Made by a program: the position numbers and the translations under genes. The notes under the pieces were generated by a model. It worked only from the letters and a program-made list of their open reading frames with translations, had not been told where the DNA came from and did no database searches. From contig CALODR010000009.1 of assembly GCA_942492175.1 (NCBI GenBank), positions 249,711-313,710 on the forward strand: a stretch of 64,000 nucleotides of DNA. The letters run 5' to 3'. Positions 12,264 to 47,030 of this stretch are shown here, piece after piece; within the stretch, counting starts at the first letter, position 1; each line of letters starts with the position of its first letter. Source of the stretch: an uncultured bacterium (GTDB taxonomy: Bacteria; Acidobacteriota; Aminicenantia; UBA2199).

Positions 12264-12264
12264 T

Positions 12265-29953: not shown

Positions 29954-30054
29954 GAACGTTTGCTCTACCTGTTGATTGATTTTTAATTTTTTCTATATTA
30001 GAATTTGTTAAGCAGGGTGCGGTGAAATTCCGTATCTTGAATTTGGAGAAAATT

Positions 30055-30408
30055 ATGAGGAATTTCCTTATTAAGTCAAAAACAATCGATAATGTCGGAG
30101 TTCTTTATCCGACCGGGCATCTCGATGCGCACAGCGTTGAGAAATTCGAGAATGAGATGATAAAGATGCTGGATGACAGCATCGTTAAAATTGTGGTTAA
30201 TTGTAACGATCTTAATTATATAAGTTCTGCCGGAATGGGTATCATAATGGGCTATCTTGATGAGATAAGGGAAAAGGGCGGAGATATTAAATTATCTAAT
30301 GTGATAGACCGGGTGTACGAGATCTTCGATCTTGTGGGATTTACAGAGATATATGATTTTGAGAAAAGCGAAACTGAGGCAATAGAAAAATTTAATAATG
30401 TTTCCTGA
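30055..30408 (+). CDS. STAS anti-sigma-factor antagonist (RsbV/SpoIIAA-like)
   Basis: GHLDA, DLNYISSAG with phosphorylatable Ser, GGDIKL; ATG 30055 after GGAG. Confidence 0.9.
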   Translation: MRNFLIKSKTIDNVGVLYPTGHLDAHSVEKFENEMIKMLDDSIVKIVVNCNDLNYISSAGMGIIMGYLDEIREKGGDIKLSNVIDRVYEIFDLVGFTEIYDFEKSETEAIEKFNNVS

Positions 30409-30826
30409 AACCCCTGAGCTTACAGTCTCAATACCGGCTAAGACCGAACTGCTTAAAATGCTGGTTGAACTGACCAATTATATTGCAGTCAGAAATTTCT
30501 TCTCTCCTCCGGAATCCAGGAAGATTGCCCTTGCTGTTGATGAGGCAATAACAAATGTTATCAAACATTCTTATAAAGAATCTGAGGACTCTGAAATAAA
30601 GCTCGATTTTTATTGCAGTAATGAAGGTATGAAGATTAAAATAGAATTTACAGGGATACCTCCCCAACTCAGTGAATCTATGGTAAATCTTGAGAAGATG
30701 ATCAAAGCGAAAAAGAAAGGAGGGCTGGGAGTCGCCCTGATAAAGAGGATCATGGATTCGGTCGAATACAGAACCATTGAGGATGTGAACTACCTGGAAA
30801 TGATCAAATGGAAGAGAAGCAGCTAA
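30398..30826 (+). CDS. RsbW/SpoIIAB-like anti-sigma factor Ser/Thr kinase
   Basis: LAVDEAITNVIKHSY, GGLGVALIKRIMD. Confidence 0.9.
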   Translation: MFPETPELTVSIPAKTELLKMLVELTNYIAVRNFFSPPESRKIALAVDEAITNVIKHSYKESEDSEIKLDFYCSNEGMKIKIEFTGIPPQLSESMVNLEKMIKAKKKGGLGVALIKRIMDSVEYRTIEDVNYLEMIKWKRSS

Positions 30827-32058
30827 AAGATCTTGTCAAAGAATTAAAAGTAAAAAATTTTCAGTTCAACTCAATATATGAATTTTCCTCCTCAATTTAC
30901 TCGTCATTTAATCTTGAAAGCATTTTCCGTATCTTTTTTTCAACCATAATGGGTCATATGGGTATAACAAGGGCATTCTTTTTTGACGAAAAAAACAAAC
31001 TGCTTGAGAAGAGGGGATTCAGGTTCGGCAAGAACGAGAGACAGGCGCTTATGGAAGGGATAAAAGCTGCCGGGGATGAATGGGAGCATATTGAAGTCAG
31101 ATCAATTGAGAAAAAAAATCCAGAATTGTTTGAACTTCTTGCCGAGAAAAATATATCTAATCTGATTAATCTGACTGAAAAAGGGACAAAGGTGATCGTT
31201 CTGGGGCTCGGTCAAAAGTTTAACAGGCTTGACCTGAAACAGGAAGATCTTGACTTTTCTCTCTTTCTTTCAAGATTCACACTTATTGCCATCGAGAACA
31301 GCTTCATGATATCCAAAATGATAGAGAAGCAGAAGATGGAGCATGAGATCAACATTGCAAAGGAGATACAACTATCACTTCTGCCCCAGGAGCTTCCGGA
31401 GTTTAAGAATTTCGACATTGCAGTAAAGTATGAACCGATACAGGGTGTTGGTGGAGATTATTATGATATCTTGAAGGAGAAAGACGGAAAAACACCTGTC
31501 CTTATTGCAGATGTAGAGGGGAAAGGTTTGTCGGCAGCGCTGCTTGCAGCTTCATCACAGGCTGTTTTTCATGCTGTGAACGACCTCTATTTTTCCGGAC
31601 CCGAGGATTTTGTATCGAAGGCAAATTCTCTTATATACAATTTTACAAGAGGTAACAGATTTATCACAATATTCTGGATGATAGTCGATGATAAAAAAAG
31701 ATCTGTCTCATATGTCAATGCCGGGCATATTGAACCTATTCTTATTTCAGGGAAAAAGGCCACTCCCCTCTCCAGGGGCGGGTTCCTGACCGGATTTACA
31801 AATGATGCAAAGTACGAAAAAGGGGAATTGTCTCTCAAGTCAGGTGATGTTATAGCTGCATTCACAGACGGTGTGCCTGAGATAGAGAATGATAAAGGAG
31901 AGGAGTTCGGTGTTAAAAGGATGATCGACTTTGTCATGAAAAAAAAGGATAAAACGGCAGCGGAAATTAATGAAGGAATATATAAACAGATGTTCAAGTT
32001 CAGCGGTAACAGAAAACCTTCGGATGACTGTACTCTTATTATTTTAAAAGTAAAGTAG
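30808..32058 (+). CDS. RsbU/SpoIIE-type PP2C phosphatase with N-terminal GAF-like region
   Basis: GGDYYD, IADVEGKG, NAGH, FTDG, DDCTL. Confidence 0.92.
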   Translation: MEEKQLKDLVKELKVKNFQFNSIYEFSSSIYSSFNLESIFRIFFSTIMGHMGITRAFFFDEKNKLLEKRGFRFGKNERQALMEGIKAAGDEWEHIEVRSIEKKNPELFELLAEKNISNLINLTEKGTKVIVLGLGQKFNRLDLKQEDLDFSLFLSRFTLIAIENSFMISKMIEKQKMEHEINIAKEIQLSLLPQELPEFKNFDIAVKYEPIQGVGGDYYDILKEKDGKTPVLIADVEGKGLSAALLAASSQAVFHAVNDLYFSGPEDFVSKANSLIYNFTRGNRFITIFWMIVDDKKRSVSYVNAGHIEPILISGKKATPLSRGGFLTGFTNDAKYEKGELSLKSGDVIAAFTDGVPEIENDKGEEFGVKRMIDFVMKKKDKTAAEINEGIYKQMFKFSGNRKPSDDCTLIILKVK

Positions 32059-32065
32059 GCAGACC

Positions 32066-33616
32066 CTAATATTCGAACTCTCTCTGTTCTTCTTCTGCAG
32101 AATTCACTATCCCGGGTGCGTCTGATCTGGGACATACATTTTCACATATACCGCATCCTATACATAGATCAGGTACAACATATATCTGCTTAACTTTTAC
32201 AAGTTTTCCTTCAAAGTTCCAGACATCGACTTCCCTGAACCTTATAGCCTTATCGGGGACTGGGCAATGTTCTTCACAGACAGCACAATTGTAACCGTCA
32301 GCATAAGTGTAGCATCTGTCTTTTACTACAACTGCAGTACCGATCTTAAAGTTCTTCTTTTCTTTAAGAGAAAGTGCTTCTATCGCTTTTGTGGGGCAGA
32401 CCTGGGTACACCGGTGACATTCATATTCACAATAGCCTATTGCCGGCTCCAGTATCGGTGTCCAAAGCCCGTCAATTCCTGTTTCAAAAAAAGCGGGCTG
32501 AATAAAATTCGTGGGGCATGCCTGCATACATTCTCCGCATCTTATACACTTGTCAAGAAAATCTACTTCTGAAACCGATCCTGGAGGCCTTTCAAATTTG
32601 TGTATTCTGGATTTTGAAGTTCCTGAAAATCTTGGGAGTGATGCAGCAAAGATCCCTGAAACAATCGATCCTGTAATTTTTCTGCGTCCCAGATCAATAT
32701 GATTCCTTCTCTCTTTAATTGGCAGCTGAAATTTTGTGCTGATAGATTTCGGAGGGCAGGAATCTTCACAATTGTAGCAGACCATACACTCTGATTTCTT
32801 GTAGTCCTGATAGGGGCTCCCGTTGTATGTGCAGTCCGTAGCGCATATGTTGCATTTTTTACAGGTATCCTTATTCACATTCAGGTTGAGGATGCTGAAT
32901 TTTGCAAACAGGCCGTATAGTGCTCCGAGTGGGCAAAGGTAATTACAAAAAAATCTCCTCTTATAAAAGTTCGCTCCTATCAGCAGGAAGAAGATGAATC
33001 CAATGAATACGGATTGGAGAAATTTCCTCGGCTTGTTCGGGAGAATGTTCTTCTTGGAAAAATCGTATGCGGGTTTAATAGCTTTTGATATAATTCCCGA
33101 ATCTTCTGCACCCCCTTTCAGAGTCTCTTCAATAACATAATTTGCAGAGGGACTGACAACAACTGATGTACTTCTTGTAAGGATGGAGAACGGATCAAAC
33201 CATCCCCCGATATTTGTCCCGAACAAAGTCATGACCAGTACAATCGTCAATATCACATATTTCAATTTGAGAAGTTTATGATCTACCTGCTCCACTCTCT
33301 TTCTTTTCCTTCTGAACAGCCAAGAAAAGAAGTGATGAATAGTACCCATAGGGCATATCCACCCACAGAAGAACCTGCCGAATATCAGTGTAAGCCCGAG
33401 TGGTATCAATGACAACAGGAAAAGGTTGATTATTGTATGGGTGGAGAACAGGTTTATGATCAGAAGCAGTGGGTCAAAATAGAAGAAGTAATCAGAATAC
33501 CTGAATGTTTCGGTGGCTGGGGCACCTGTTCTTATCAGGAGCCAGAAAAAAATTGTCAGGAAAAATATTTGGAAAAAAAGCCTTATTAGTTTTTTCTTGG
33601 GAAATTTTATAGACAT
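32066..33616 (-). CDS. Membrane polyferredoxin (NapH/MauN-like membrane part fused to NapG/MauM-like ferredoxin)
   Basis: GRFFCGWICPMG, RFFCNYLCPLG, CKKCNICATDC, CMVCYNCEDSCP, RPPG, CIRCGECMQACP, CIGCGICENVCP. Confidence 0.85.
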   Translation of the reverse strand: MSIKFPKKKLIRLFFQIFFLTIFFWLLIRTGAPATETFRYSDYFFYFDPLLLIINLFSTHTIINLFLLSLIPLGLTLIFGRFFCGWICPMGTIHHFFSWLFRRKRKRVEQVDHKLLKLKYVILTIVLVMTLFGTNIGGWFDPFSILTRSTSVVVSPSANYVIEETLKGGAEDSGIISKAIKPAYDFSKKNILPNKPRKFLQSVFIGFIFFLLIGANFYKRRFFCNYLCPLGALYGLFAKFSILNLNVNKDTCKKCNICATDCTYNGSPYQDYKKSECMVCYNCEDSCPPKSISTKFQLPIKERRNHIDLGRRKITGSIVSGIFAASLPRFSGTSKSRIHKFERPPGSVSEVDFLDKCIRCGECMQACPTNFIQPAFFETGIDGLWTPILEPAIGYCEYECHRCTQVCPTKAIEALSLKEKKNFKIGTAVVVKDRCYTYADGYNCAVCEEHCPVPDKAIRFREVDVWNFEGKLVKVKQIYVVPDLCIGCGICENVCPRSDAPGIVNSAEEEQREFEY

Positions 33617-33622
33617 TTGCGA

Positions 33623-34510
33623 TCAGATCTTTATTGTTTTTAAATTGATCTTACTAATATCTTTCTGGCCCATTCCTCTTCTGAACCCGGCTCCGATGAA
33701 ATCTATTTCATCCACACTTTTTCCGAAGAGATCGACTGCCACAACATCAGCTTCAAATATATTTTTTGAACATATTATGGTCTTCTTAAGTTCAACATCA
33801 CTCAATCTTCCGCCGACAGGACCGTTCTTTTTCAAAATTCTATACGCATCTACAACGGTAAGGTCGGTCTTAAAACCGTTAGCAAGATCTGCAATATTCT
33901 CACCCATACTTCTGTGAAGTTTCCCCCTTCTCCCTCCAATGATTCCATACAGATTTTTCATCCCTATTGTAAGTCCCGCGCTTGAATGATGTTTTAAAAT
34001 TGGCACATTTATGAATTTATCAACCTCGAGGTGGTCCTTGAAAACCGGCCACTTTTTCAATGTTTCTCCATTAAAATTGTGAATTACAAGTTTGTTCTCA
34101 TCAGAGAATCTTATTTCTGCACCGCTCTTCTCAACGGCTTCCTTAATTCCGCTTCGCCTGTATGTGTCTTCTGATTTATGGCAGGAGTTATCCATTACTA
34201 TAACTTTTTTTGCACCAGCATCGAATGCCATTTCTATTAATGCTCTTAATACTTCCGGGTTAGTGTTAGCTGCATGCTCCACCTTCCGGTTCCAGCCTAT
34301 ATTCGGTTTTATCATAACTATATCTTGTTTGCTGATAAACTTTTTCATCCCTCCTATGAGTTCAATTCCTTTTTTGGTAATATCATAAGGGGATTCACCT
34401 GTAACTTTTGCAACAAGATCTACTCCTCCCTCAGAGAAAGCGGGAATTCTGGAGATAAATGCTGTGGTGGCAGCTATTGTTGAAGTTTTGATAAATTTTC
34501 TTCTTTTCAT
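33623..34510 (-). CDS. DUF362 domain protein with twin-arginine signal
   Basis: MKRRKFIK Tat motif; IKPNIGW, NTNPEV, INVPILKHH, GMKNLYG. Confidence 0.88.
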   Translation of the reverse strand: MKRRKFIKTSTIAATTAFISRIPAFSEGGVDLVAKVTGESPYDITKKGIELIGGMKKFISKQDIVMIKPNIGWNRKVEHAANTNPEVLRALIEMAFDAGAKKVIVMDNSCHKSEDTYRRSGIKEAVEKSGAEIRFSDENKLVIHNFNGETLKKWPVFKDHLEVDKFINVPILKHHSSAGLTIGMKNLYGIIGGRRGKLHRSMGENIADLANGFKTDLTVVDAYRILKKNGPVGGRLSDVELKKTIICSKNIFEADVVAVDLFGKSVDEIDFIGAGFRRGMGQKDISKINLKTIKI

Positions 34511-34631: not shown

Positions 34632-34704
34632 GGGCGATTAGCTCAGCTGGAAGAGCATCGGTTTTACACGCCGAGGGTCAGAGGTTCAAGTCCTCTATCG
34701 CCCA
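34632..34704 (+). tRNA. tRNA-Val (TAC)
   Basis: Acceptor GGGCGAT/ATCGCCC, anticodon arm TCGGT-TTTACAC-GCCGA, T-loop GGTTCAAGTCC; CCA not encoded. Confidence 0.95.
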
Positions 34705-34716
34705 ATCTTAATGAGC

Positions 34717-34793
34717 GGGGTCGTAGTTCAGTTGGTTAGAACGCTGGCCTGTCACGCCAGAGGCCGCGAGTTCGAGTCTCGTCGGCCCCGCCA
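34717..34793 (+). tRNA. tRNA-Asp (GTC)
   Basis: Acceptor GGGGTCG/CGGCCCC, anticodon arm CTGGC-CTGTCAC-GCCAG, TTCGAGT loop, encoded CCA. Confidence 0.96.
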
Positions 34794-34804
34794 TTTCCCA
34801 TTTC

Positions 34805-35145
34805 GGGGGCGAAATGGGTTCGACAGTATTGATTATGTCAAAGCAGCAGATTGAGCTGAGTAACTCATTAAACTGTTCAAAAAAAGAAACGCAAACGATT
34901 TTGCACTCGCAGCATAATTAATGTTGCCGTTCCGGTTGCCTTTTCCTGCTGGGTTCCCGGGGCGTCACTTCGCAGGATAAGCCGGACATAGTTGTCTTTG
35001 ACTCTGACCCGGACGAAAATTTGATAAAGACTCCCTCAGGGCTTTTTGTTTGTTTTTTATCTGGGGGGCATAAAAAAACAAACTAAATCTGAAGAAACTT
35101 TGACTGAGTCCTTATTGGACGCGGGTTCAACTCCCGCCGCCTCCA
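34805..35145 (+). ncRNA. ssrA: tmRNA, tag peptide ANDFALAA
   Basis: 5' GGGGGCG pairs with 3' CGCCTCC(A) with G3-U70; GGGTTCAACTCCC T-arm; tag ORF GCA AAC GAT TTT GCA CTC GCA GCA TAA at 34891-34917. Confidence 0.95.
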
Positions 35146-35159
35146 GTTGACTGGAATAG

Positions 35160-37796: not shown

Positions 37797-40154
37797 ATGG
37801 GAGATGTTGAAATCATAAAAACTGAAAAGAAAAGTTTTTTTAAAGAGCTTTTGCATAGAAGAGTATTGCAGATAACAGGATTTTATCTTGGCGGCGGATG
37901 GGGGGTTCTTCAATTCCTCGACTGGATAGTAGAGAGGTACCTGCTCTCCCCTCTTCTTGTGGACATGGCTTTAACAATCATTATTTCTCTCCTCCCAACT
38001 ATTGTGACAATTGCATATTTTCATGGAATCCCGGGGAAGGACAAATGGAGGAAGCGCGAAAAGATCCTTATACCTTTGAATCTTACATTGGCAATAGTAC
38101 TAGTTTTTTTTATATTCGGGAGTAAAGATCTCAGCTCTTTAGCTAAACGTGTCTCGGTTGTTGATGAGGAAGGGAATAGAATAGAACAATTGGTCCCGAG
38201 AAAAGGAGTAGTTAAAAATCTAACTGCTTTTTTCTTCGAAAATGAATCCGGAGACAAAAAATCAGACTGGCTCCAATATGTAATTATGGATATGTTCGTT
38301 TTTGATATTTCCCAGGATCCGTTTATTAATGTGTTGTACCCATTCACTCAGGATGTAATGAAGGGGTTTTATGTTTATCAGAAATTCAAGGATGCAGGGT
38401 TCCCTGATGCAACTGGAGCTCCTCTTATGCTGAAAAAAAATATCGCAACCGATCTGAAATCTGAAAATTTCATGTCAGGGAGTATTACCAGCGCTGGAGA
38501 TGAGATAGAGATTGATGTCAAGATATACAGAACCAGGGATAATAGTATTGCCGCAGAGAAAACTTTTAAAGCCAACGATATTTTCTTACTTGTCGATGAT
38601 CTTACAGACTTTATAAAAAAAGTTTTAAAACTCCCGAGTTACAATAACAGGGAGATCATAGATCTCCAGATAAAGGATATGTTTACAAGTTCCCTAAAAG
38701 CAGCCCGTTTCTTTACTGAAGGAGGGTATGAAGTTGTAAAGAACAATGATTATAACGCCGCTCAGAAACTTTTTGAAGATGCGGTGAATGAAGATACTAC
38801 ATTTACCATCGCATACTCACAATTGTCCGAGATCTATGCATTGAACAACAGAATCGATAAATGGAAGTCGACAGTCAAAGAAATGATGAAACACTTGTAT
38901 AAATTACCGGAAAAAATGCAGATGCAGCTGAAAGCAGGATATTATCTGAGCGTAAAAGGTGAGCCTGAAAAAGCTGAATCGATCCTAAAAATGATCATAA
39001 AGCTTTATCCGAATGATACTAAAAGTTATTTCCAGCTGGCGTCACGTCTGGATCTGACAGGTAACTATAAAGAGGCGATTTTGTATTATCAGAAAATACT
39101 TGAGTTAGATCCGGGACAGGATGAGATCTATAATAAAATAGGGAGAGCTTATGAAAATCTTGATGAGCTGAATGAAGCCCTTGAAAACTATAGAAAATTT
39201 TCGGAATTATACCCAAAGGATATACCAGGTTTTCTCAGGATAGGCAAAATTGAAGAGATGCTGGGGCATTTTAATAAAGCCGCGGAAATTTATGATAAAG
39301 CACTTCTGCTGGATCCGGAAAGAACCGGCACTATTCTCTTGCTGGCAGGACTTGATATAAAAACGGGGGAATTCGCTGAAGCGCTTGTGAAATATCAGGA
39401 AGCCCTCGAAACATCAAAGAATAGCAGAGAAAAAGCGTCTGTCTACAGTGCCATGGAAAATTATTTTCAGATGAAGGGTCAGCAGAATAAAGCTGTTGAA
39501 ATGATGAATAAGTTCTATCAGAGTAATGATCAATACCTCCCGCCTCTTCAGACTTTATTCGTGAAGGTGGTGACGGTTGATATTTTCATGAAGAAAGGTA
39601 TGGTGAAGGAAGTGAAAGAATTGCTGGATAAAGCAAGGAAACAGCTGTCCCCTCCTTTTGATAATATAGTTTCTGTCGGATACATTACATATTATAAATA
39701 TCTAGGAGAACTTGAAAAAGCAGAAAGTTATCTTCCTGATATAGATGAGTTTGTCAAATTGACAGGAAATAAGCAATTACTTCAAGTCTCGGGAAGGAGA
39801 AAAGCTGAGATAGCTTTTTTAAGAGGGGAATTTGATAAAGCATTTCTTTACTACAAAGAACTGCTTGAACAGGACCGGGACGGTATATCACTCAACCTCC
39901 AGATCGCCAATTGTCTGAAAAAACTGGGAAGATATGAAGAGGGACTGGAATATATTAATAAGATATTAAAGCTCTCTCCCTATCATCCCGAACTGAATTT
40001 TACTGCAGGCCAACTTAATTCAGAATTAAAAAATAGGGCAAAGGCAATTTTCCACCTTGAGCTTGCTGTAAAAGGCTGGGAAAATTCTGATGAGGATTTC
40101 GAACCGGCCGTTAAAGCAGGTAAAATGCTGGAAAACCTTAGAAAGGGAAAGTAA
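37797..40154 (+). CDS. Membrane-anchored TPR protein with TolB-N/FlgO-like domain
   Basis: N-terminal ELLHRRVLQ...W..LQ and 2-3 TM helices, LTAFFFENESGD, many TPR-like repeats. Confidence 0.75.
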   Translation: MGDVEIIKTEKKSFFKELLHRRVLQITGFYLGGGWGVLQFLDWIVERYLLSPLLVDMALTIIISLLPTIVTIAYFHGIPGKDKWRKREKILIPLNLTLAIVLVFFIFGSKDLSSLAKRVSVVDEEGNRIEQLVPRKGVVKNLTAFFFENESGDKKSDWLQYVIMDMFVFDISQDPFINVLYPFTQDVMKGFYVYQKFKDAGFPDATGAPLMLKKNIATDLKSENFMSGSITSAGDEIEIDVKIYRTRDNSIAAEKTFKANDIFLLVDDLTDFIKKVLKLPSYNNREIIDLQIKDMFTSSLKAARFFTEGGYEVVKNNDYNAAQKLFEDAVNEDTTFTIAYSQLSEIYALNNRIDKWKSTVKEMMKHLYKLPEKMQMQLKAGYYLSVKGEPEKAESILKMIIKLYPNDTKSYFQLASRLDLTGNYKEAILYYQKILELDPGQDEIYNKIGRAYENLDELNEALENYRKFSELYPKDIPGFLRIGKIEEMLGHFNKAAEIYDKALLLDPERTGTILLLAGLDIKTGEFAEALVKYQEALETSKNSREKASVYSAMENYFQMKGQQNKAVEMMNKFYQSNDQYLPPLQTLFVKVVTVDIFMKKGMVKEVKELLDKARKQLSPPFDNIVSVGYITYYKYLGELEKAESYLPDIDEFVKLTGNKQLLQVSGRRKAEIAFLRGEFDKAFLYYKELLEQDRDGISLNLQIANCLKKLGRYEEGLEYINKILKLSPYHPELNFTAGQLNSELKNRAKAIFHLELAVKGWENSDEDFEPAVKAGKMLENLRKGK

Positions 40155-40155
40155 T

Positions 40156-41805
40156 ATGTTTGACAAAAATTGCTGCCATTCAAATCTGAGAGGGTATGCT
40201 TCAAGGGTTGACGGGAATGAGATTCCATACTCGATATGTGAGACATGTAAAAGTATCTGGCTTGACAGGGAAGAAGCCATAAAATTGAGATCAAAATACA
40301 GTGAAGAGAAAAGTAATATGATTTCTGATTACTTCTGCCCCAGATGTGGGGATAATTTTTTGGAGACAATTAAAGATGATTTTGTTGAAGGGTTGTCAAT
40401 TCACCAGTGCAGAAAATGCAATGGGATAAGAATAAACCTTCTTGATCCTGAAAAGACAATGATAAAAAAAAGCGGAAATGAACTTTTTTACTCTTTTATC
40501 AATACACTCTCAGATTCCTTTAATAGAGAAATAAATCGAAAACAAAGTCATAAATTGCCACTTAGTTTTAAAATCAGCAAAACAGAAGAAACAGACAATA
40601 AATGTCCCGCCTGCAGCGCTAAGTTGTCAAATTACAGGGTTCATGAAAATGATGGGGAAAGCGAAGTAGAATTTGATATATGTGATTCGTGTTATGGAGT
40701 TTGGTTTGATAAAGAAGATATGGTTTCCCATAGGTCTGGTTTAGAGAAAAAACTCAATATTGATCTAGATAATATTGCTCCTACCGACAGGACCTGTCCT
40801 AAATGCCGTGATATTAAACTGGTTTCCCTAAAGTATAAGGAACTTGACACAATAATTGACTGCTGCCCTGATTGTTTCGGCACCTGGTTGGACGGGGGGG
40901 AATTATTAGAATTCTCAGATCATCTGGGAATTAGTGGTCAGATGATAATTGATGTTCTGATCGATAATGCTCTGTTTAAAGACCCTGTATTAACAGGAGT
41001 ATTGAAGCAATTCAGCAGAACAATTCATAAAATGGAATCGCTTAACAGGGAGCAGGAGGAGAATCTTGATCAGGCAAGAGAAATACAGGAAAAATTAATA
41101 TTTGCAGATAAAGAGCCAAATTCTCTTGAACCCTATTTGTATTTTAAATATTCAATCCTCAGTCATTGGATCCCAGCTAAAGTAGTAGGAGGAGATTACT
41201 TTGCTATGATCCCATTTAAATATAAAGGGAAAGACCTGATGGGTATTTGCATTGCAGATGTCTCGGGGAAAGGATTACCGGCATCTTTGCTGATGTCAAA
41301 TTTACAGGCATTGCTGAATTCATTTGCTCGACACACTGATTCTCCTGCAAAACTTTGTACTCAGTTAAATAGTATCCTGCATAATTTTACAATGTCCAAC
41401 AAATTTATAACTTTTTTCTATGGCGTTCTGGATCCCGCATCAGGATCTTTTAAATACTGTAATGGAGGGCATAATCCTCCGGTATTTCTTTCTTCAACCG
41501 GTAGTTACGAATGGATGAAAACAGGGGGGAGTGTATTAAGTTTTTTCCCTGATTGGGAATACAATGAAGATGTAGTTTATCTCAAAAAAGGGGACAGAAT
41601 TCTGTTTTATACGGATGGAGCGTCAGAAACTGAGAATAAAGCCGGAGAAGAGTTTGGAGAAGCAAGACTTGCATCTTTATTAAAGAATTATAGTAATCTT
41701 GATATTACTCAGGCAATGCAGTCCCTGATAAGGGATATAAAAGAATACAATCTCGGACAATACAATGATGATACGACCCTTCTGCTCATGGAAAGATATG
41801 AATAG
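40156..41805 (+). CDS. Four tandem zf-TFIIB-like Zn ribbons fused to a SpoIIE/PP2C phosphatase
   Basis: CPxC...CxxC.G.W.D repeats; GGDYF, IADVSGKG, NGGH, YTDG, DDTTL; ATG 40156 one base after the upstream stop. Confidence 0.85.
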   Translation: MFDKNCCHSNLRGYASRVDGNEIPYSICETCKSIWLDREEAIKLRSKYSEEKSNMISDYFCPRCGDNFLETIKDDFVEGLSIHQCRKCNGIRINLLDPEKTMIKKSGNELFYSFINTLSDSFNREINRKQSHKLPLSFKISKTEETDNKCPACSAKLSNYRVHENDGESEVEFDICDSCYGVWFDKEDMVSHRSGLEKKLNIDLDNIAPTDRTCPKCRDIKLVSLKYKELDTIIDCCPDCFGTWLDGGELLEFSDHLGISGQMIIDVLIDNALFKDPVLTGVLKQFSRTIHKMESLNREQEENLDQAREIQEKLIFADKEPNSLEPYLYFKYSILSHWIPAKVVGGDYFAMIPFKYKGKDLMGICIADVSGKGLPASLLMSNLQALLNSFARHTDSPAKLCTQLNSILHNFTMSNKFITFFYGVLDPASGSFKYCNGGHNPPVFLSSTGSYEWMKTGGSVLSFFPDWEYNEDVVYLKKGDRILFYTDGASETENKAGEEFGEARLASLLKNYSNLDITQAMQSLIRDIKEYNLGQYNDDTTLLLMERYE

Positions 41806-41855: not shown

Positions 41856-43814
41856 TTAAGTTATTTTTTCAGCAATTATCTCAGCTATATCTTTAACTTT
41901 GACTGACTCCTCTTTTTCTTTGTCTTTGATCCCGTCTGTCAGCATTGTTGTACAGAAGGGGCAGGAAGTACAGACGGTATCTACGCCGGTTCTAATTACT
42001 TCATCTGTCCTGACGTGGTTAATCCTCTCGCCCTGGTCCTCTTCAGCCCACATAAGACTCCCGCCTCCACCGCAACAGAAACTGTGATTCTTGTTATTCT
42101 TCATCTCTTTTAGTTTCAGGCCTGCACTTTTTATTACTTTTCTCGGCTGATCATAAATCCCGTTATGACGCCCCAGGTAGCACGGATCATGGAAAGTTAC
42201 ATCATATTCTGAATCTTTATTGATCTTAAGTTTTCCCTGAGAGACAAGTTCGTTTATCAACTGGGAGTGGTGGAATATTTCGGGCATTTTGAATTCCATC
42301 CCTGTAAGTTTTGCTATATCGTTGTACTCATTTTTAAATATGTTCATTCCGTGAGGACAGGTTGTTACGATCTTTTTAAATTTGTATCTCATCAGAGTTT
42401 CAATATTCTGAACTGCCATCATTTGAAAAAGGTATTCATTCCCTGCTCTTCTGGCAGGATCACCGCAGCAATTTTCTTCAGCTCCGAGTACAGCATAATC
42501 GAGACCTGATTTGTTCAATATTGAGATCATAGCTTTTGTCACATTTTTATTCCTGTCATCAAAGGAACCTGAACAACCCACCCAGAATAGTATCTCCGCA
42601 TCATCATGATCTGATGCTTTCCTGACCTCCAGGTCTTCCATCCATTCACCCCTTGTCGAAGATCCGAATCCCCAGGGGTTACTATTGGTCTCAAGATTTC
42701 TGAAGAACTGATTGAATACTTCCGGAAATTTAGCCTCCATAAGGACACGGCTCTGTCTCATCCCGATGATTTTCGGTATGTGCTCATTCAGTACCGGACA
42801 TGCATCCATGCAGGCCCCGCAGGTTGTACAGCTCCAGATCTCATTGTCTACAAATACCCTGTCCATTAGTGGGGGGATCTGGTAAGCCGGGTCTTTAAGT
42901 TTTTTTGCTCCCTCTTTCAGAAGGTCATCTCTCATTTTTGTGATAATTGTTTTTGGTGACAACTCTTTTCCTGTCTGGGATGCAGGGCAATAGTCTGTGC
43001 AGCGGCCGCAGTCTATACAGGCAAAACCGTCAAACAGGTCTTTCCATGTCATATCCACCTGCGTTGTAACACCGAATGTTTCAGCGGATTCCAGATCTAC
43101 GGTTTTCAGATATGAGGTAGGATTTCCGGCTTTAAAAGCAATGTTGGCCGGCCCCATGAACATGTGCATATATTTTGAACGGGGTACATATAGTATAAAC
43201 ATGAATACATTTATGATGTGGAGCCACCATGTTGCTTTGACAAGGGCCCATGATGCGGGAAGCCATCCGGCAAATATTTTTCCTACAAAAGCCACGCTTT
43301 CATCATAGGTGCCGTGATAAGAGATAGCAGCCCCCTCATAAAGGAGGAAGGTTAGTGTTACAGTTACCAGTAATGCATAGATTAACGGAGATTCCAAAGT
43401 GCCGTAGGTGTAGGATGATCTCCTTACAACATAACGTTTCACTATAAAAAATATTACTGCAAGAATGACTGCTATCGAAAAGAAATCAGCGATAATCGTG
43501 TGAATATTTGATGGATGTATATTTTTGTTAAATCCCTCCAGTATATGGAAAACTGTTATTGTATCAAAAGTTAAAGATCCATATAAAAGAAATATATGTA
43601 CCAATCCGGTTACTATTCTCTCTTTCTTAACGGAGCACATTAGAAGAAAAAAGTTTGCAATTGCATTAGTGATCCTTTTAAAGGGGTTGTCGAACCTTTC
43701 AGACTTCTGTCCCAATTGAACAAGTTTTATCCTGTGAACAACCGGTGTGAAAAAGAACCATATAGTAAAACCCAGCATTAATACAAAAACTATTGTTTCA
43801 ATAATATTAAGCAT
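41856..43814 (-). CDS. Membrane Fe-S oxidoreductase (FadF/HdrD-like; NarI-like TM region, two 4Fe-4S motifs, two CCG domains)
   Basis: CIDCGRCTDYCP, CTTCGACMDACP, WVGC, CCGD, HDPCYLGR, CCGGGG. Confidence 0.88.
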   Translation of the reverse strand: MLNIIETIVFVLMLGFTIWFFFTPVVHRIKLVQLGQKSERFDNPFKRITNAIANFFLLMCSVKKERIVTGLVHIFLLYGSLTFDTITVFHILEGFNKNIHPSNIHTIIADFFSIAVILAVIFFIVKRYVVRRSSYTYGTLESPLIYALLVTVTLTFLLYEGAAISYHGTYDESVAFVGKIFAGWLPASWALVKATWWLHIINVFMFILYVPRSKYMHMFMGPANIAFKAGNPTSYLKTVDLESAETFGVTTQVDMTWKDLFDGFACIDCGRCTDYCPASQTGKELSPKTIITKMRDDLLKEGAKKLKDPAYQIPPLMDRVFVDNEIWSCTTCGACMDACPVLNEHIPKIIGMRQSRVLMEAKFPEVFNQFFRNLETNSNPWGFGSSTRGEWMEDLEVRKASDHDDAEILFWVGCSGSFDDRNKNVTKAMISILNKSGLDYAVLGAEENCCGDPARRAGNEYLFQMMAVQNIETLMRYKFKKIVTTCPHGMNIFKNEYNDIAKLTGMEFKMPEIFHHSQLINELVSQGKLKINKDSEYDVTFHDPCYLGRHNGIYDQPRKVIKSAGLKLKEMKNNKNHSFCCGGGGSLMWAEEDQGERINHVRTDEVIRTGVDTVCTSCPFCTTMLTDGIKDKEKEESVKVKDIAEIIAEKIT

Positions 43815-43924: not shown

Positions 43925-43983
43925 GATTATCTTGAATGGGGGGATGGATTGTGTTAATCTTTTGGGGTAGAAAAGGAGATAAA

Positions 43984-44460
43984 ATGACAGATAAAATAAT
44001 TAATATAGGGGATAATGCCCCCGATTTCACTCTTAAAGATAATTCAGGTAATGACTTTTCACTCAGCAGTTTAAAGGGAAAATGGGTTGTGCTCTATTTC
44101 TATCCGAAGGATAACACTCCCGGATGTACTACCGAAGCTGTTGAATTTTCCGAAGTAAAGGACAATTTTCAGAAAAGAGGAGTGGAGGTGCTTGGAGTAA
44201 GCCCGGACTCGGTAAAGAGCCATATTAATTTTATTGAAAAAAAGGAATTGACTATAAAATTACTCAGTGATCCCGATAAAGATGTGCTTAAAAATTATGG
44301 GGTCTGGCAGTTGAAGAAAAATTACGGCAGGGAATATTGGGGAGTTGTAAGGTCAACTTTTTTAATTTCACCTGACATGAAGGTTGCACATTCATGGAGT
44401 TCTGTAAAAGTTAAAGGGCACGTTGAAGCTGTTGAGAAGAAACTGGAGGAATTGATCTGA
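43984..44460 (+). CDS. bcp: BCP/PrxQ peroxiredoxin (single Cys)
   Basis: YFYPKDNTPGCTTEA, GVSPD, LLSD, RSTF; ATG 43984 after GGAG. Confidence 0.92.
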   Translation: MTDKIINIGDNAPDFTLKDNSGNDFSLSSLKGKWVVLYFYPKDNTPGCTTEAVEFSEVKDNFQKRGVEVLGVSPDSVKSHINFIEKKELTIKLLSDPDKDVLKNYGVWQLKKNYGREYWGVVRSTFLISPDMKVAHSWSSVKVKGHVEAVEKKLEELI

Positions 44461-44472
44461 CGAAATCCCGAT

Positions 44473-46170
44473 TCAGGTCTTAGGCCTTCCGGGATCATCT
44501 TCTTTTTTCTTGAGCTTTTTTAGTTCCTCTTCGATTGCTTTCTTCTCTTTTATAAGCTGCTCTATCTCTTTTTTGTATTTTTCCAGGCTCTCTTTTCTCC
44601 TTTTTTCAATCTCTTCCTGAAGCTGCTTATTCTCTTTATTAAGAAACCTTTTTTCCTGAAGTTCTTTCTCTTTCAGTTCCAACAATCTGATCTTTTCGAG
44701 CTCCTCTTTCATTTTTAACTGATGCTGTCTATCCATCCAGAATTGTGCACCTGAAAATTTCTTGTTGAATTCATCGATCAACCGGGACTTATAAACCAGC
44801 CTTGAAGGGGCGATCTCTTTTTCGATAGTTTTCCCTTTTCTGATCAGTTTTATCTTCACTTTTTCATTCCTTTTTACTTTTTTAAGGGATGAAGTGAGAT
44901 CGGAAGTTGTTTTCAAGGGGAGATCATTGGAACTGATAAGTATGTCTCCTACTTTTAATTGCGATGCCTCTCCTTTTTTTTCCGATTTTACTTTTGAAAC
45001 AAGGAGTCCCCTGCCTGACTTTACTTTAAACTCTTCTGCAAGTTCAGGGGTGAGGGGGATAACATCAACACCGAGGCTGAATGATTCTGATAGATTGAAA
45101 GTATAGTTTTGTATTTTGGGTATAGATTCGATGAACTCGGGTGCTTCTGATAATCTGTTTACTAACTGCTGCTCTTTTATCTCGATCAGCTTCTTTTCCC
45201 TAAGATCCAGATCGGCAAGCTTTACATTTACTTTATGGAATTTTCCATCCCTTTCTATGGATACGATTATTTTATCTCCCGGTTTCAGCATTTTAATACT
45301 GTTGGAAAGGTGGGCCGGTGTTTTTATTTTCTTTCCTGAAATGTCTAAGATTCTGTCTCCTTCTTTAATCCCGCCAATTTCTGCAGGGGAGGTTTTTATT
45401 ACTTTCTCAACTTGTACCACCCCTCTGTTGTCGCTTATGATATTAACCCCCAACCATCCTCTTTTTACATGCCCGAACTCTTTGAGGTCATCTGCTATCC
45501 TGAATACCAATTCGTTTGGAATCGCATAACAAAGGTCCTTTCCTCCCCTCATTGATGATACGATCTTGAGTTCCGAATGGTCATCTTTAAAAGTGTATTG
45601 AGGGAAGAACTTATATCCGAAAACACCCCTTATTATACCGATGAATTCACCTTTCCTGTTTACAACTGCACCTCCTGTTGAACCGGGAGCGACAGTGGCA
45701 TTCAGGATAAGGTCTGTGCTGCTTTTACTACTGATTATTCCCTGGTTAAGGGATGGGAATTGTTTGTAGAACACTCCCACAAGTCCTACCCACTCACCTG
45801 TTCCCGGAAGTTTTCCCTTCCTGACAGGTTTAAGTACCCTTTCTTTGGTCCTCAGAAGGATCAGGGAGGAGTTCTTATCTTTTCCCACTATTTTCACATC
45901 GTGGATATTTCCTTTAACCGTTTCAATAAAGATCCTGTCGAAAGGGTGATTGAGAACCATTATATTTGATAATACCAGATCTTTCTCAATAGCAACGCCT
46001 GTGGCAATATATCTCCTGTGATTCTGAGTGACCACTTTTACAACGGAGGGCGAAATTTTGTCCAGTGCTTTCTTTACAAAAGTATCATTCCTGTTCACTT
46101 TTTCCGCACCATTCAGTCCGGCGGACAGCATTATTAATATTATGTATATGATAAACAGTATCCTTTTCAT
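44473..46170 (-). CDS. Exported HtrA/DegP-like protein with two PDZ domains, degenerate catalytic triad and C-terminal coiled coil
   Basis: PSVV, GKD, GIIS, GGAVVN.KGE.IGI, RGWLGV, SPA..GGIKEGD; SNIMV, SSLIL and PGSTGG at the triad positions. Confidence 0.8.
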   Translation of the reverse strand: MKRILFIIYIILIMLSAGLNGAEKVNRNDTFVKKALDKISPSVVKVVTQNHRRYIATGVAIEKDLVLSNIMVLNHPFDRIFIETVKGNIHDVKIVGKDKNSSLILLRTKERVLKPVRKGKLPGTGEWVGLVGVFYKQFPSLNQGIISSKSSTDLILNATVAPGSTGGAVVNRKGEFIGIIRGVFGYKFFPQYTFKDDHSELKIVSSMRGGKDLCYAIPNELVFRIADDLKEFGHVKRGWLGVNIISDNRGVVQVEKVIKTSPAEIGGIKEGDRILDISGKKIKTPAHLSNSIKMLKPGDKIIVSIERDGKFHKVNVKLADLDLREKKLIEIKEQQLVNRLSEAPEFIESIPKIQNYTFNLSESFSLGVDVIPLTPELAEEFKVKSGRGLLVSKVKSEKKGEASQLKVGDILISSNDLPLKTTSDLTSSLKKVKRNEKVKIKLIRKGKTIEKEIAPSRLVYKSRLIDEFNKKFSGAQFWMDRQHQLKMKEELEKIRLLELKEKELQEKRFLNKENKQLQEEIEKRRKESLEKYKKEIEQLIKEKKAIEEELKKLKKKEDDPGRPKT

Positions 46171-46180
46171 TTATTTTCTC

Positions 46181-46513
46181 CTAAATTGTCCCGGGATCTT
46201 CAAAGTTCCCCACCTGTTCGATCACATAATTATTGGAATCATCTGAAGCGGCAAAGGTAACATAATCGGTAACCGGCACTTCTTCCCGGGCGATAGGCCC
46301 TCCTTTTGTGAACAATGTATCGTTCTTCTCCGGAAGGAAAAGTGTCACGGAAATGAACAGGAATCCTCCTAGAAGAAAGGCTCCGAATGAAGAGGCTGCC
46401 ATGACTCTCTGTCTCTTCTTTCTTTTTATCTTGTGGAACACCATATCTTCAAAATTGTCGTTCAGTTGTTCCGTACGGGTGTAATCTCTGAAAATATCAT
46501 CCCTGCTACCCAT
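46181..46513 (-). CDS. Small single-pass membrane protein (putative anti-sigma factor)
   Basis: Overlaps the ECF sigma stop; basic patch followed by one TM helix. Confidence 0.6.
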   Translation of the reverse strand: MGSRDDIFRDYTRTEQLNDNFEDMVFHKIKRKKRQRVMAASSFGAFLLGGFLFISVTLFLPEKNDTLFTKGGPIAREEVPVTDYVTFAASDDSNNYVIEQVGNFEDPGTI

Positions 46514-47030
46514 TGTTTCCTCCGAATTGTACTTTTAATTTACTTCTCATTTTTTCTTTTCCTCTGAAAACAAGAGATTTTAGAGTTCCTACAGGTTTCT
46601 GCAGAATGTCCGACATTTCTTCAAATGAAAAATTGTCAACCTCTTTCATGATCAGAGGTACCCTGTATTTCTCTGCAAGGTGTGCCAGTGCTTCCTCAAT
46701 GATTATATTCTCTCCGAGCTTCTGCTCATAGGAATAATTAAGTTCATTGACATCACCAAGTGAGAACAGGTTCTTGATCCTCTTTTTTCTGAATTCAGAA
46801 AGTGCAAGATTTGTAGCGATCTTATATATCCAGGCCTTGAGGTTTTCTGTTTTAAGTGATCCGGCTTTGAAGTATACCCTCACAAATGTATCCTGGGTGA
46901 GTTCCTCCGCCTGCTCTCTGTTACCGAGCATCAGCAGAAGATAATTGAATATCTGACCTTTGTACATTCTCATCACCTCTTTAAGTGCCCACTCATCCTT
47001 CTGTTTCAGTTTGTTAATAAGTTCTGTCAT
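46506..47030 (-). CDS. ECF RNA polymerase sigma factor
   Basis: AEELTQDTF, AWIYKIATN, region 4 SFEEMSDILQKPVGTLKS. Confidence 0.93.
   Translation of the reverse strand: MTELINKLKQKDEWALKEVMRMYKGQIFNYLLLMLGNREQAEELTQDTFVRVYFKAGSLKTENLKAWIYKIATNLALSEFRKKRIKNLFSLGDVNELNYSYEQKLGENIIIEEALAHLAEKYRVPLIMKEVDNFSFEEMSDILQKPVGTLKSLVFRGKEKMRSKLKVQFGGNNG

What the first reader, a model, noticed from the sequence alone, without database searches (positions are those of the whole stretch)
37797..41805. Membrane TPR receptor-like protein coupled to a four-Zn-ribbon PP2C phosphatase
Seen: gene 1 has TM helices, a TolB-N-like domain and many TPRs but no cytoplasmic enzyme domain. Gene 2 starts one base later with four modules: CCH...CETC..IWLD, CPRC...CRKC.GI, CPAC...CDSC.GVWFD and CPKC...CPDC.GTWLDGGEL. 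A short helical linker then leads to an intact SpoIIE domain. Established: SpoIIE/RsbU phosphatases usually carry PAS, GAF, HAMP or REC inputs; zf-TFIIB-like ribbons are usually small proteins or linked to rhomboids. I do not recall this architecture being described. Inference: a two-gene signalling system in which Zn/thiol-redox status or a TPR-bound ligand controls dephosphorylation of a STAS protein.
Basis: partly seen in the sequence, partly recalled or inferred. Interest (0 to 1): 0.66.

Follow-up and report, generated by a model that had tools for sequence, protein, structure and literature searches.

The report
Zinc-ribbon phosphatase paired with membrane sensor
An uncultured Acidobacteriota bacterium encodes an ordinary-looking signalling phosphatase with a rare, unstudied input module of four zinc ribbons, translationally coupled in its own clade to an envelope sensor that has no output domain; it is a new variant of a known signalling scheme, not a new kind.

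Summary
Gene 1 (37797-40154) encodes a 785-aa protein with three N-terminal membrane helices, a domain with the TolB-N fold, about a dozen TPRs and no enzyme domain. Gene 2 (40156-41805) starts one base after gene 1's stop. It encodes a soluble 549-aa protein with four PF13453 zinc ribbons, a 40-residue helix and an intact SpoIIE/RsbU-type PP2C domain.

The ribbon module is an internal duplication of a double-ribbon unit. The full four-ribbon-plus-PP2C architecture is rare: about 31 clusters among 5.8 billion, all ~550-aa PP2Cs from Acidobacteriota-like metagenomes. I found no paper on it.

- The gene pair, with overlapping or abutting stop and start codons, is kept in 7 of 7 loci of the window's own clade. 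It is absent from every more distant family member, and one gene 1 orthologue lacks the phosphatase.
- The TolB-N/TPR part is most likely periplasmic. Any coupling must therefore pass through about 40 cytoplasmic residues of gene 1.
- Nothing specifically supports redox or zinc sensing.
- A phosphorylatable STAS protein with its kinase lies 8 kb upstream, so a STAS substrate is plausible.

Verdict: new variant of a known kind, of moderate interest.

The parts
37797..40154 (+). Gene 1: 785-aa membrane protein with a TolB-N-fold domain and TPRs, and no enzyme domain
   Evidence: ORF. TPR Pfam hits. Orthologues at 45-62% identity, and 28-32% relatives fused to a kinase or cyclase.
37797..37865 (+). 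Gene 1 aa 1-23: short, basic, conserved cytoplasmic N-terminus (R21 and R22 nearly invariant)
   Evidence: In P0133 and P0136 a cytoplasmic kinase or cyclase is attached directly before this segment.
37866..38120 (+). Gene 1 aa 24-108: three hydrophobic helices (24-45 weaker, 52-75, 88-108). They enclose the conserved basic loop YFHGxPGKxxWxKxEK (aa 74-89), which is predicted to be cytoplasmic.
   Evidence: Kyte-Doolittle profile and charge counts. H76, G77, G80 and K89 are invariant or nearly so.
38148..38636 (+). Gene 1 aa ~118-280: alpha/beta domain with the TolB-N fold, inferred to be periplasmic
   Evidence: AF2 pLDDT 88.3, pTM 0.83. Foldseek matches TolB 4pwz/7mx5/1crz at E ~5e-6, then LpoB, PelC, CsgG and the CadC periplasmic domain. 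No Pfam hit.
38703..40091 (+). Gene 1 aa ~303-765: TPR array of about a dozen repeats
   Evidence: Pfam TPR_19, TPR_2, TPR_14, TPR_8, TPR_1 and others, E down to 7e-29. NCBIfam gives only sub-threshold TPR matches.
40156..41805 (+). Gene 2: 549-aa soluble protein with four zinc ribbons and a PP2C phosphatase domain. Its ATG lies one base after gene 1's stop.
   Evidence: No hydrophobic segment.
40171..40266 (+). Ribbon 1 (aa 6-37): C6-C7-H8 ... C28-x2-C31 ... IWLD. The first knuckle is non-canonical in this clade.
   Evidence: The first knuckle is CxxC or Cx4C in distant family members.
40336..40440 (+). Ribbon 2 (aa 61-95): CPRC ... CRKC. It lacks the W-x-D motif.
   Evidence: C61, C64, C85 and C88 are invariant. 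AF2 predicts strands 55-95.
40480..40548 (+). Helix aa 109-131 joining the two double-ribbon units. It is the most variable part of the module.
   Evidence: AF2. Conservation 0.37.
40603..40722 (+). Ribbon 3 (aa 150-189): CPAC ... CDSC-YGVWFD
   Evidence: C150, C153, C176, C179, G181, W183 and D185 are invariant. Best PF13453 stretch 149-189.
40795..40911 (+). Ribbon 4 (aa 214-252): CPKC ... CPDC-FGTWLDGGEL. It is the most conserved ribbon.
   Evidence: C214, C217, C237, C240 and G242-E249 are invariant. Conservation 0.77. Matches PDB 8yoz_A.
40984..41103 (+). Linker helix aa 277-316, running into the alpha0 motif AREIQEKLIF of the PP2C domain
   Evidence: AF2 helix 277-316. Q300, A307, Q311 and L314 are invariant. 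The region aligns with the linker of P. aeruginosa RssB (3eq2, query 288-496).
41128..41802 (+). PP2C/PPM catalytic domain (SpoIIE family) with intact metal-binding residues
   Evidence: PF07228 E 5.6e-46. Foldseek matches Rv1364c, RssB, SiaA, RsbX and SpoIIE. D347, D368, D487, D538 and D539 are invariant.
30022..30826 (+). Candidate substrate module: STAS protein (30022-30408, Ser motif ISSAGMG) and an RsbW-like kinase (30398-30826). The assignment as substrate is inferred, not shown.
   Evidence: PF01740 E 3e-17 and PF13581 E 2e-19. Translation.

Best explanation
Gene 2 is a cytoplasmic, Mn/Mg-dependent phosphoserine phosphatase of the RsbU/SpoIIE branch of PP2C. It is built on the usual plan of an N-terminal input domain, a long helical linker and a PPM domain. 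The unusual part is the input domain: a duplicated double zinc-ribbon unit, arranged as ribbons 1-2, a helix, then ribbons 3-4.

I propose that the ribbons are structural Zn(Cys)4 modules that act as a protein-docking or dimerisation platform. Occupancy of that platform would set the conformation of the linker (aa 277-316) and hence of the PP2C switch helices and metal site, as in RsbU-RsbT.

In the window's clade, the partner is most likely gene 1. Gene 1 is a three-helix membrane protein whose TolB-N-fold domain and TPR array face the periplasm. Only about 40 conserved basic residues (aa 1-23 and loop 76-91) face the cytoplasm. An envelope signal sensed outside would be relayed through the membrane helices to these segments, which would recruit or release the phosphatase.

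The phosphatase would then dephosphorylate a phospho-STAS anti-sigma antagonist, with 30022-30408 as a candidate, switching a partner-switching output.

Shown here: domain anatomy, intact catalytic residues, rarity, clade-specific operon conservation, and fold assignments. Inferred: topology, ribbon-to-gene 1 contact, direction of regulation, and substrate.
For: PP2C identity:
- PF07228 E 5.6e-46.
- Invariant metal ligands.
- Foldseek top hits are Rv1364c, RssB, SiaA, RsbX and SpoIIE.
- The nearest sequence relatives are REC-PP2C RsbU-like proteins.

Linker:
- AF2 predicts a helix at 277-316 at good confidence (overall pLDDT 83.1, pTM 0.71).
- It aligns with the RssB linker.
- It is highly conserved (0.69 overall, 0.88 within the clade).
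- The linker/switch mechanism is established for RsbU, RsbP, RssB and others (PMC12143880).

Ribbon module:
- Four PF13453 stretches.
- Internal duplication: hhalign probability 97.3%, E 2e-11.
- The complete module occurs only in this family.

Pairing:
- Gene 1 and gene 2 are adjacent with an 8-11 nt overlap or a 0-1 nt gap in the window, L001, L002, L008, L088, L168 and L170. The flanking genes are otherwise unrelated.
- P0003/P0122 and P0008/P0304 share contig lengths.

Gene 1 as a sensor body:
- Full-length relatives carry an N-terminal Pkinase (P0133, aa 55-306) or a cyclase (P0136, aa 9-163) directly before the same membrane region. This places the N-terminus in the cytoplasm.
- Three helices then put the C-terminal part outside.
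- All best structural matches of the juxtamembrane domain are periplasmic or envelope proteins.
- An outer-membrane efflux protein in the window indicates a diderm cell.

Substrate:
- A STAS protein with a conserved Ser, plus an RsbW-like kinase, lies 8 kb upstream.
Against: - More distant family members (38-54% identity) keep all four ribbons yet have no gene 1 homologue nearby. The ribbon module therefore works without gene 1, and gene 1 cannot be its universal partner.
- One gene 1 orthologue (L169) has no phosphatase downstream.
- Positions specific to the paired clade are not concentrated in the ribbons, so no sequence signal marks an interface.
- Gene 1 exposes very little to the cytoplasm.
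- No complex prediction could be run.
- The STAS/RsbW pair already has its own PP2C (30808-32058).
- Gene 2 is not adjacent to any STAS gene in any locus examined.
Confidence: 0.5

Rival explanations
1. Thiol or zinc redox switch. The 15-16 zinc-bound cysteines would be oxidised by peroxide or other oxidants in this probable anaerobe. Zinc would be released, the ribbons would unfold, and the linker and PP2C would be freed or locked, making the phosphatase itself the oxidant sensor.
For: - Twelve invariant and two nearly invariant Cys.
- The Fe-S-rich gene content suggests an anaerobe.
- Anecdotal redox neighbours: a Bcp peroxiredoxin at 43936-44460, MsrA/B in L168 and a nitroreductase in L170.
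- The family functions without gene 1 in most lineages, which fits a self-contained sensor.
Against: - Cys4 ribbons are normally structural.
- PF13453 ribbons occur in about 1,700 or more unrelated representative proteins, including pure poly-ribbon proteins and a protease fusion, with no known redox role.
- The ZAS motif HxxxCxxC is absent from the sequence.
- The redox neighbours are on other strands or in other operons and are not conserved between loci.
- No experiment bears on this.
Confidence: 0.15
2. The two genes are co-transcribed but do not signal to each other. The phosphatase would be regulated by a soluble partner or ligand that binds the ribbons, as it must be in the unpaired lineages. 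Gene 1 would be an envelope TPR scaffold whose co-expression is only a regulatory convenience.
For: - Unpaired family members occur in five contexts.
- A gene 1 orthologue exists without the phosphatase.
- Gene 1 has a tiny cytoplasmic surface.
- No clade-specific signature appears in the ribbons.
Against: - Stop/start overlap is conserved in 7 of 7 loci across 45-62% (gene 1) and 57-71% (gene 2) identity, while all flanking genes differ. This is the classic signature of functional coupling.
- The CC[H/P] variant of the ribbon-1 knuckle is found only in the paired clade, although this is confounded with phylogeny.
Confidence: 0.25
3. The ribbons bind nucleic acid or RNA polymerase, as the 'TFIIB-like' and 'Zn-finger nucleic acid-binding' annotations suggest, tethering the phosphatase to the transcription machinery.
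For: The names given by Pfam (PF13453) and by JGI. TFIIB-type ribbons bind polymerase in archaea and eukaryotes (established knowledge).
Against: - The naming reflects clan-level similarity only.
- No DNA- or RNA-binding domain or basic surface was identified.
- No supporting literature was found.
- The only solved homologue (8yoz, 82 aa) carries just the generic name.
Confidence: 0.05

Closest known systems
B. subtilis RsbU (with its activator RsbT) and RsbP (with RsbQ)
   Same: A SpoIIE-family PP2C with an N-terminal regulatory domain joined by a long helical linker. Regulation comes from a separately encoded partner, and the substrate is a phospho-STAS protein. The mechanism is taken from PMC12143880 and PMC3183031.
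   Different: The input is four zinc ribbons instead of a four-helix bundle or PAS domain. The neighbouring partner is a membrane TolB-N/TPR protein, not a kinase-like RsbT or a hydrolase RsbQ. The gene is not located in a sigma-factor operon.
P. aeruginosa RssB (3eq2/3f7a) and acidobacterial REC-PP2C proteins
   Same: These are the closest sequence and structure relatives of the linker and PP2C half: 40-43% identity for the REC-PP2C proteins, and Foldseek E ~1e-12 for RssB.
   Different: The input is a receiver domain controlled by phosphorylation. They have no zinc ribbons.
M. tuberculosis Rv1364c (3ke6)
   Same: The best PDB match of the PP2C domain (E 4e-14 by sequence; E 2e-13 by fold).
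   Different: It has a PAS input and fused RsbW and STAS domains in one chain.
P. aeruginosa SiaA and Chlamydia RsbU (membrane-anchored PP2C sensors)
   Same: They couple an extracytoplasmic or membrane sensor to a partner-switching PP2C. The SiaA PP2C is a structural match (6k4e).
   Different: Sensor and phosphatase are a single polypeptide there. Here the putative sensor (gene 1) and the phosphatase (gene 2) are separate proteins.
Receptor Ser/Thr kinases and adenylate cyclases built on the same TM/TolB-N/TPR body (P0133, P0136), and the CadC periplasmic domain (3lya)
   Same: Gene 1 aligns over 98-99% of its length with the sensor body of these proteins. The juxtamembrane fold matches TolB-N and the CadC periplasmic domain.
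   Different: Gene 1 has no cytoplasmic catalytic or DNA-binding domain. Its output, if any, must be supplied in trans.
Stand-alone PF13453 double-ribbon proteins (about 110-140 aa) and PDB 8yoz
   Same: Ribbons 3-4 match hundreds of such proteins over aa 149-255. Ribbon 4 matches 8yoz_A.
   Different: Those proteins have no enzyme domain and no known function. Here two such units are fused to a phosphatase.

Membership tests
PPM/PP2C phosphatase, SpoIIE family (PF07228) | Profile match above the curated threshold | tested here: met
   157.3 bits against a cutoff of 25, aa 361-547
PPM/PP2C phosphatase, SpoIIE family (PF07228) | Conserved metal-binding Asp residues and the D-x-S-G-K/H-G motif | tested here: met
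   GGD347YF, AD368VSGKG, TD487G and D538D539T are invariant in 30 sequences
PPM/PP2C phosphatase, SpoIIE family (PF07228) | PP2C fold | tested here: met
   AF2 pLDDT is mostly 82-97 over the domain. Foldseek matches 3ke6, 3f79, 6k4e, 3w40 and 5ucg with TMt 0.5-0.8.
PPM/PP2C phosphatase, SpoIIE family (PF07228) | Mn2+/Mg2+-dependent phosphoserine phosphatase activity | not testable with these tools
   Needs an enzyme assay
RsbU-type partner-switching phosphatase | N-terminal regulatory domain joined to the PPM domain by a long alpha-helical linker that packs on alpha0/alpha1 | tested here: met
   Helix 277-316. It aligns with the RssB linker. Mechanism reference PMC12143880. Dimeric crossing of the linkers was not testable.
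RsbU-type partner-switching phosphatase | A phosphorylatable STAS antagonist and an RsbW-type kinase in the genome | tested here: met
   30022-30408 is STAS with ISSAGMG; 30398-30826 is HATPase_c_2
RsbU-type partner-switching phosphatase | Genetic linkage of the phosphatase to its STAS/anti-sigma/sigma genes | tested here: not met
   Gene 2 lies 8 kb from the triad, which has its own PP2C. No STAS gene lies next to any family member examined.
RsbU-type partner-switching phosphatase | Dephosphorylates phospho-STAS | not testable with these tools
   Needs biochemistry
Zn_ribbon_TFIIB (PF13453) | Profile match | tested here: met
   E 7e-24 with 3 stretches. E 4.2e-25 with 4 stretches on the N-terminal fragment.
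Zn_ribbon_TFIIB (PF13453) | Two CxxC knuckles per ribbon (four Zn ligands) | tested here: inconclusive
   Ribbons 2-4 are canonical and invariant. Ribbon 1 has C6-C7-H8 in place of the first CxxC in this clade. Zinc content was not measured.
TPR repeat proteins | Multiple 34-residue TPR profile matches | tested here: met
   More than ten TPR Pfam families above threshold, aa ~303-765
TolB N-terminal domain (fold level) | Sequence-profile match to TolB_N | tested here: not met
   No Pfam hit in aa 1-309, even at E up to 10
TolB N-terminal domain (fold level) | Structural similarity of the alpha/beta domain | tested here: met
   Foldseek matches 4pwz_A at E 5e-6 (TMq 0.49), 1crz and 7mx5. The same fold class includes LpoB, PelC, CsgG and CadC-peri.
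ZAS-type zinc redox sensors (RsrA-like) | HxxxCxxC motif in an anti-sigma domain | tested here: not met
   The sequence has no HxxxCxxC (read from the, 17 translation). No anti-sigma domain was found.
Anti-phage defence systems (PADLOC) | Match to a defence-system protein model | tested here: not met
   Gene 2 has no hit. Gene 1 has only a generic TPR hit.

The most novel reading that the evidence does not exclude
The four-ribbon module is a new class of cytoplasmic adaptor domain. It reads the state of an 'output-less' three-helix TolB-N/TPR envelope receptor through the receptor's roughly 40 conserved cytoplasmic residues. This would make a split receptor-phosphatase, the mirror image of the receptor kinases built on the same sensor body. 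Its Zn(Cys)4 sites might additionally make the relay oxidant-sensitive. In unpaired lineages the same module would dock to other partners, which would make double PF13453 ribbons a general, unrecognised docking module of bacterial signalling.
Probability: 0.2. Interest if true: 0.7.

Novelty: new variant of a known kind. Interest (0 to 1): 0.45.

Why it matters
RsbU/SpoIIE-type phosphatases start general-stress and developmental programmes. What varies, and what decides which signal they read, is the input domain. The inputs catalogued so far are PAS, GAF, HAMP, REC and the RsbU N-domain (PMC12143880).

A duplicated zinc-ribbon input would add a new entry to that list. It would also give the very abundant but functionless PF13453 'double ribbon' proteins a first testable role, as docking or dimerisation modules.

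The pairing with an output-less member of a sensor family that is elsewhere fused to Ser/Thr kinases and cyclases suggests that this periplasmic TolB-N/TPR sensor body can be wired to different outputs, either in cis or in trans.

The practical limits are considerable:
- The organisms are uncultured, Acidobacteriota/Aminicenantes-like.
- The family is tiny.
- Everything about mechanism is inference.

Tried and rejected
- **Pfam and NCBIfam on gene 1 aa 1-309.** No TolB_N or any other domain was found. The question was resolved only by structure prediction and Foldseek.
- **Literature.** Searches for 8YOZ, PF13453, zf-TFIIB, Zn_ribbon_TFIIB, IPR027392, COG3809 and 'zinc ribbon + PP2C + partner switching' gave nothing relevant.
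- **GTDB genome scan.** The scan with the full-length alignment was swamped by generic PP2C hits.
- **Metagenome scan.** A ribbon-only alignment returned four family loci and many generic ribbon proteins.
- **Clade-specific residue analysis.** This was meant to locate a gene 1 interface, but the positions are spread evenly and are not enriched in the ribbons.
- **Defence-system reading.** This was prompted by the Cas10/RAMP neighbours of P0031. It was rejected for the window because PADLOC gives no hit and that context is unique to the most distant member.
- **Alternative start at 40090.** Rejected because orthologues start at the position matching 40156.
- **Promoter/terminator scan.** Not informative: the counts are close to those of shuffled sequence.
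- **P0021 look-up.** The protein is not on record. Its locus was recovered instead as L090.

Full report
**1. Observation**

The region holds two same-strand ORFs. Gene 1 is 37797-40154 (785 aa). A second ORF's conserved start, the ATG at 40156, lies one base after gene 1's TAA and is preceded by a purine-rich stretch. Orthologues begin at the equivalent position, so the upstream in-frame ATG at 40090 is not the start.

Pfam gives gene 1 many TPR families between about aa 303 and 765, and nothing enzymatic. Gene 2 gets SpoIIE PF07228 (aa 361-547, E 5.6e-46) and Zn_ribbon_TFIIB PF13453. The ribbon family hits three stretches in the full protein and four when the N-terminal 323 aa are scanned alone.

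**2. Anatomy of gene 2**

An alignment of 30 family members (A1) shows the following:
- The 12 Cys of ribbons 2-4 are invariant, and C28/C31 of ribbon 1 are at least 90% conserved.
- The first knuckle of ribbon 1 varies. It is CC[H/P] in the window's clade and CxxC or Cx4C elsewhere. Some apparent losses are only mis-called starts.
- The PP2C metal ligands D347, D368, D487 and D538/D539, and the DVSGKG motif, are invariant.

AlphaFold2 with this alignment gives pLDDT 83.1 and pTM 0.71. The model has four small beta modules, a helix at 109-131 between ribbons 2 and 3, short helices at 249-275, and a 40-residue helix (277-316) entering the PP2C domain.

Profile-profile comparison shows that ribbons 1-2 and ribbons 3-4 are copies of one double-ribbon unit (probability 97.3%, E 2e-11, 90 columns). 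Ribbon 4, the helices after it and the linker are the most conserved N-terminal parts. Ribbons 1-2 and the central helix are the most variable.

The PP2C half matches Rv1364c, P. aeruginosa RssB, SiaA, RsbX and SpoIIE in both sequence and fold. The sequence alignment to RssB includes its linker. The protein has no hydrophobic segment, so it is cytoplasmic.

**3. Anatomy of gene 1**

Hydrophobicity shows strong helices at about 52-75 and 88-108 and a weaker one at 24-45. A very basic conserved loop (aa 76-91, six K/R) lies between helices 2 and 3.

Full-length relatives at 28-32% identity carry an N-terminal Ser/Thr kinase (P0133, Pkinase aa 55-306) or an adenylate cyclase (P0136, aa 9-163) directly before the same membrane region. 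These ATP-using domains fix the N-terminus in the cytoplasm. Three helices then place everything after aa ~108 outside the cytoplasm.

A model of aa 105-305 (pLDDT 88.3, pTM 0.83) matches TolB N-domains best. The next matches are FlgT, GNA1162, LpoB, PelC, CsgG and the CadC periplasmic domain, all envelope proteins. The window also encodes an outer-membrane efflux protein, so a periplasm exists.

The important addition is that the TolB-N/TPR part is most likely periplasmic. Only about 40 residues face the cytoplasm: aa 1-23 and the 76-91 loop.

**4. Rarity**

- A word-indexed search of 5.8 billion clusters found about 31 proteins with both domains over the full length (38-71% identity). The next hits share only the PP2C half and are mostly REC-PP2C proteins.
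- An exhaustive HMMER search of 1.84 billion representatives with the N-terminal 295 aa found the complete module only in this family: P0004, P0022, P0029, P0031 and fragments. Some 1,700 other proteins match only as generic PF13453 ribbons, mostly over aa 149-255, which is the double-ribbon unit.
- Pure poly-ribbon proteins and a protease fusion exist.
- Named relatives are Acidobacteriota and 'candidate division CSSED10-310'. The window's AlaS is closest to Acidobacteriota MAGs (84%) and Ca. Aminicenantes (55-58%).
- No paper on the architecture or on PF13453 function was found.

**5. Is the pair a system?**

In every locus where the gene 2 homologue is at least 57% identical to the window's, a gene 1 orthologue (45-62% identical) sits immediately upstream. 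These loci are the window, L001, L002, L008, L088, L168 and L170. The stop and start codons overlap by 8-11 nt or are 0-1 nt apart, while the surrounding genes all differ. That pattern indicates selection for co-expression and probably for physical interaction.

Three findings limit this conclusion:
- Family members at 38-54% identity have no gene 1 nearby. They lie in five unrelated contexts: next to a type IV pilus cluster in L005/L006, after a leucine operon, next to Cas10/RAMP genes in L003/L004, and in L007 and L090.
- One gene 1 orthologue (L169) has no phosphatase within 5 kb.
- Residues specific to the paired clade are not concentrated in the ribbons.

The two-gene system is thus a lineage-specific wiring of a phosphatase family that can also work alone.

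**6. Mechanism**

For RsbU, RsbP, RssB and other bacterial PPMs, the established model runs as follows. An N-terminal domain and its partner order a crossing helical linker. The linker sets the alpha1/alpha2 switch and hence metal binding in a PPM dimer (PMC12143880).

Gene 2 has that linker and an intact catalytic centre. The most economical reading is that the duplicated zinc-ribbon module replaces the RsbU N-domain as the docking or dimerisation platform. In this clade, the conserved cytoplasmic segments of gene 1 would be the docked partner, relaying an envelope signal sensed by the periplasmic TolB-N/TPR domain.

The likely substrate class is phospho-STAS. The window has a STAS protein with the conserved Ser (ISSAGMG) and an RsbW-like kinase at 30022-30826, followed by a second PP2C. 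Two phosphatases converging on one antagonist would parallel RsbU and RsbP. These steps are inference.

The redox/zinc idea remains possible but has no specific support. Simple co-transcription without direct signalling is the main rival.

**7. Verdict**

This is a known kind of signalling enzyme, an RsbU-type PP2C, with a new and rare input module and a clade-specific membrane partner. It is a new variant of a known kind and of moderate interest.

Noticed in passing
window 30022-32058 (+): A complete partner-switching triad: a STAS protein (30022-30408, ISSAGMG Ser motif), an RsbW-like HATPase_c_2 kinase (30398-30826, overlapping) and a second SpoIIE PP2C (30808-32058). The N-terminal ~220 aa of the PP2C have no Pfam hit.
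   Followed up: partly
window 34632-35148 (+): Two tRNA genes followed directly by a tmRNA (Rfam 137.9 bits), upstream of the amidase/GerM/MurI cell-wall genes that precede gene 1.
   Followed up: no
window 43936-47030: A Bcp-type peroxiredoxin (+), then on the minus strand an HtrA-like Trypsin_2+PDZ protease, a 110-aa membrane protein without a Pfam hit (a possible anti-sigma factor) and an ECF sigma factor. Together these form an envelope-stress-like module 2-5 kb downstream of the pair.
   Followed up: partly
L003/L004 8001-9719 and flanks: The most distant family member (P0031, 38% identity) lies between a cluster containing a Tubulin_2 (PF13809) protein and genes with Cas10-palm and RAMP hits.
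   Followed up: no
L005 and L006, 800-7900: In the unpaired sub-clade (P0014, P0009), the phosphatase is conserved divergently next to a pilB-pilT-pilC-pilS-pilR type IV pilus cluster in two independent metagenomes.
   Followed up: no
P0161, P0162, P0167, P0232, P0233: Some proteins consist of 5-6 PF13453 ribbons and nothing else. One has DUF4124, two retropepsin-like protease domains and four ribbons. Tandem ribbons are a widespread module of unknown function.
   Followed up: partly
window 12238-14472 (+): A 744-aa ORF with no Pfam match at E 1e-5.
   Followed up: no
window 41856-43814 (-) and 32066-34510 (-): An HdrD-like CCG/4Fe-4S membrane protein is convergent with gene 2. A large poly-ferredoxin next to a DUF362 protein also lies nearby. 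This Fe-S-rich content suggests an anaerobic lifestyle.
   Followed up: no
L169 2881-3582: A HigB-toxin/HTH pair lies upstream of the one gene 1 orthologue that lacks the phosphatase.
   Followed up: no
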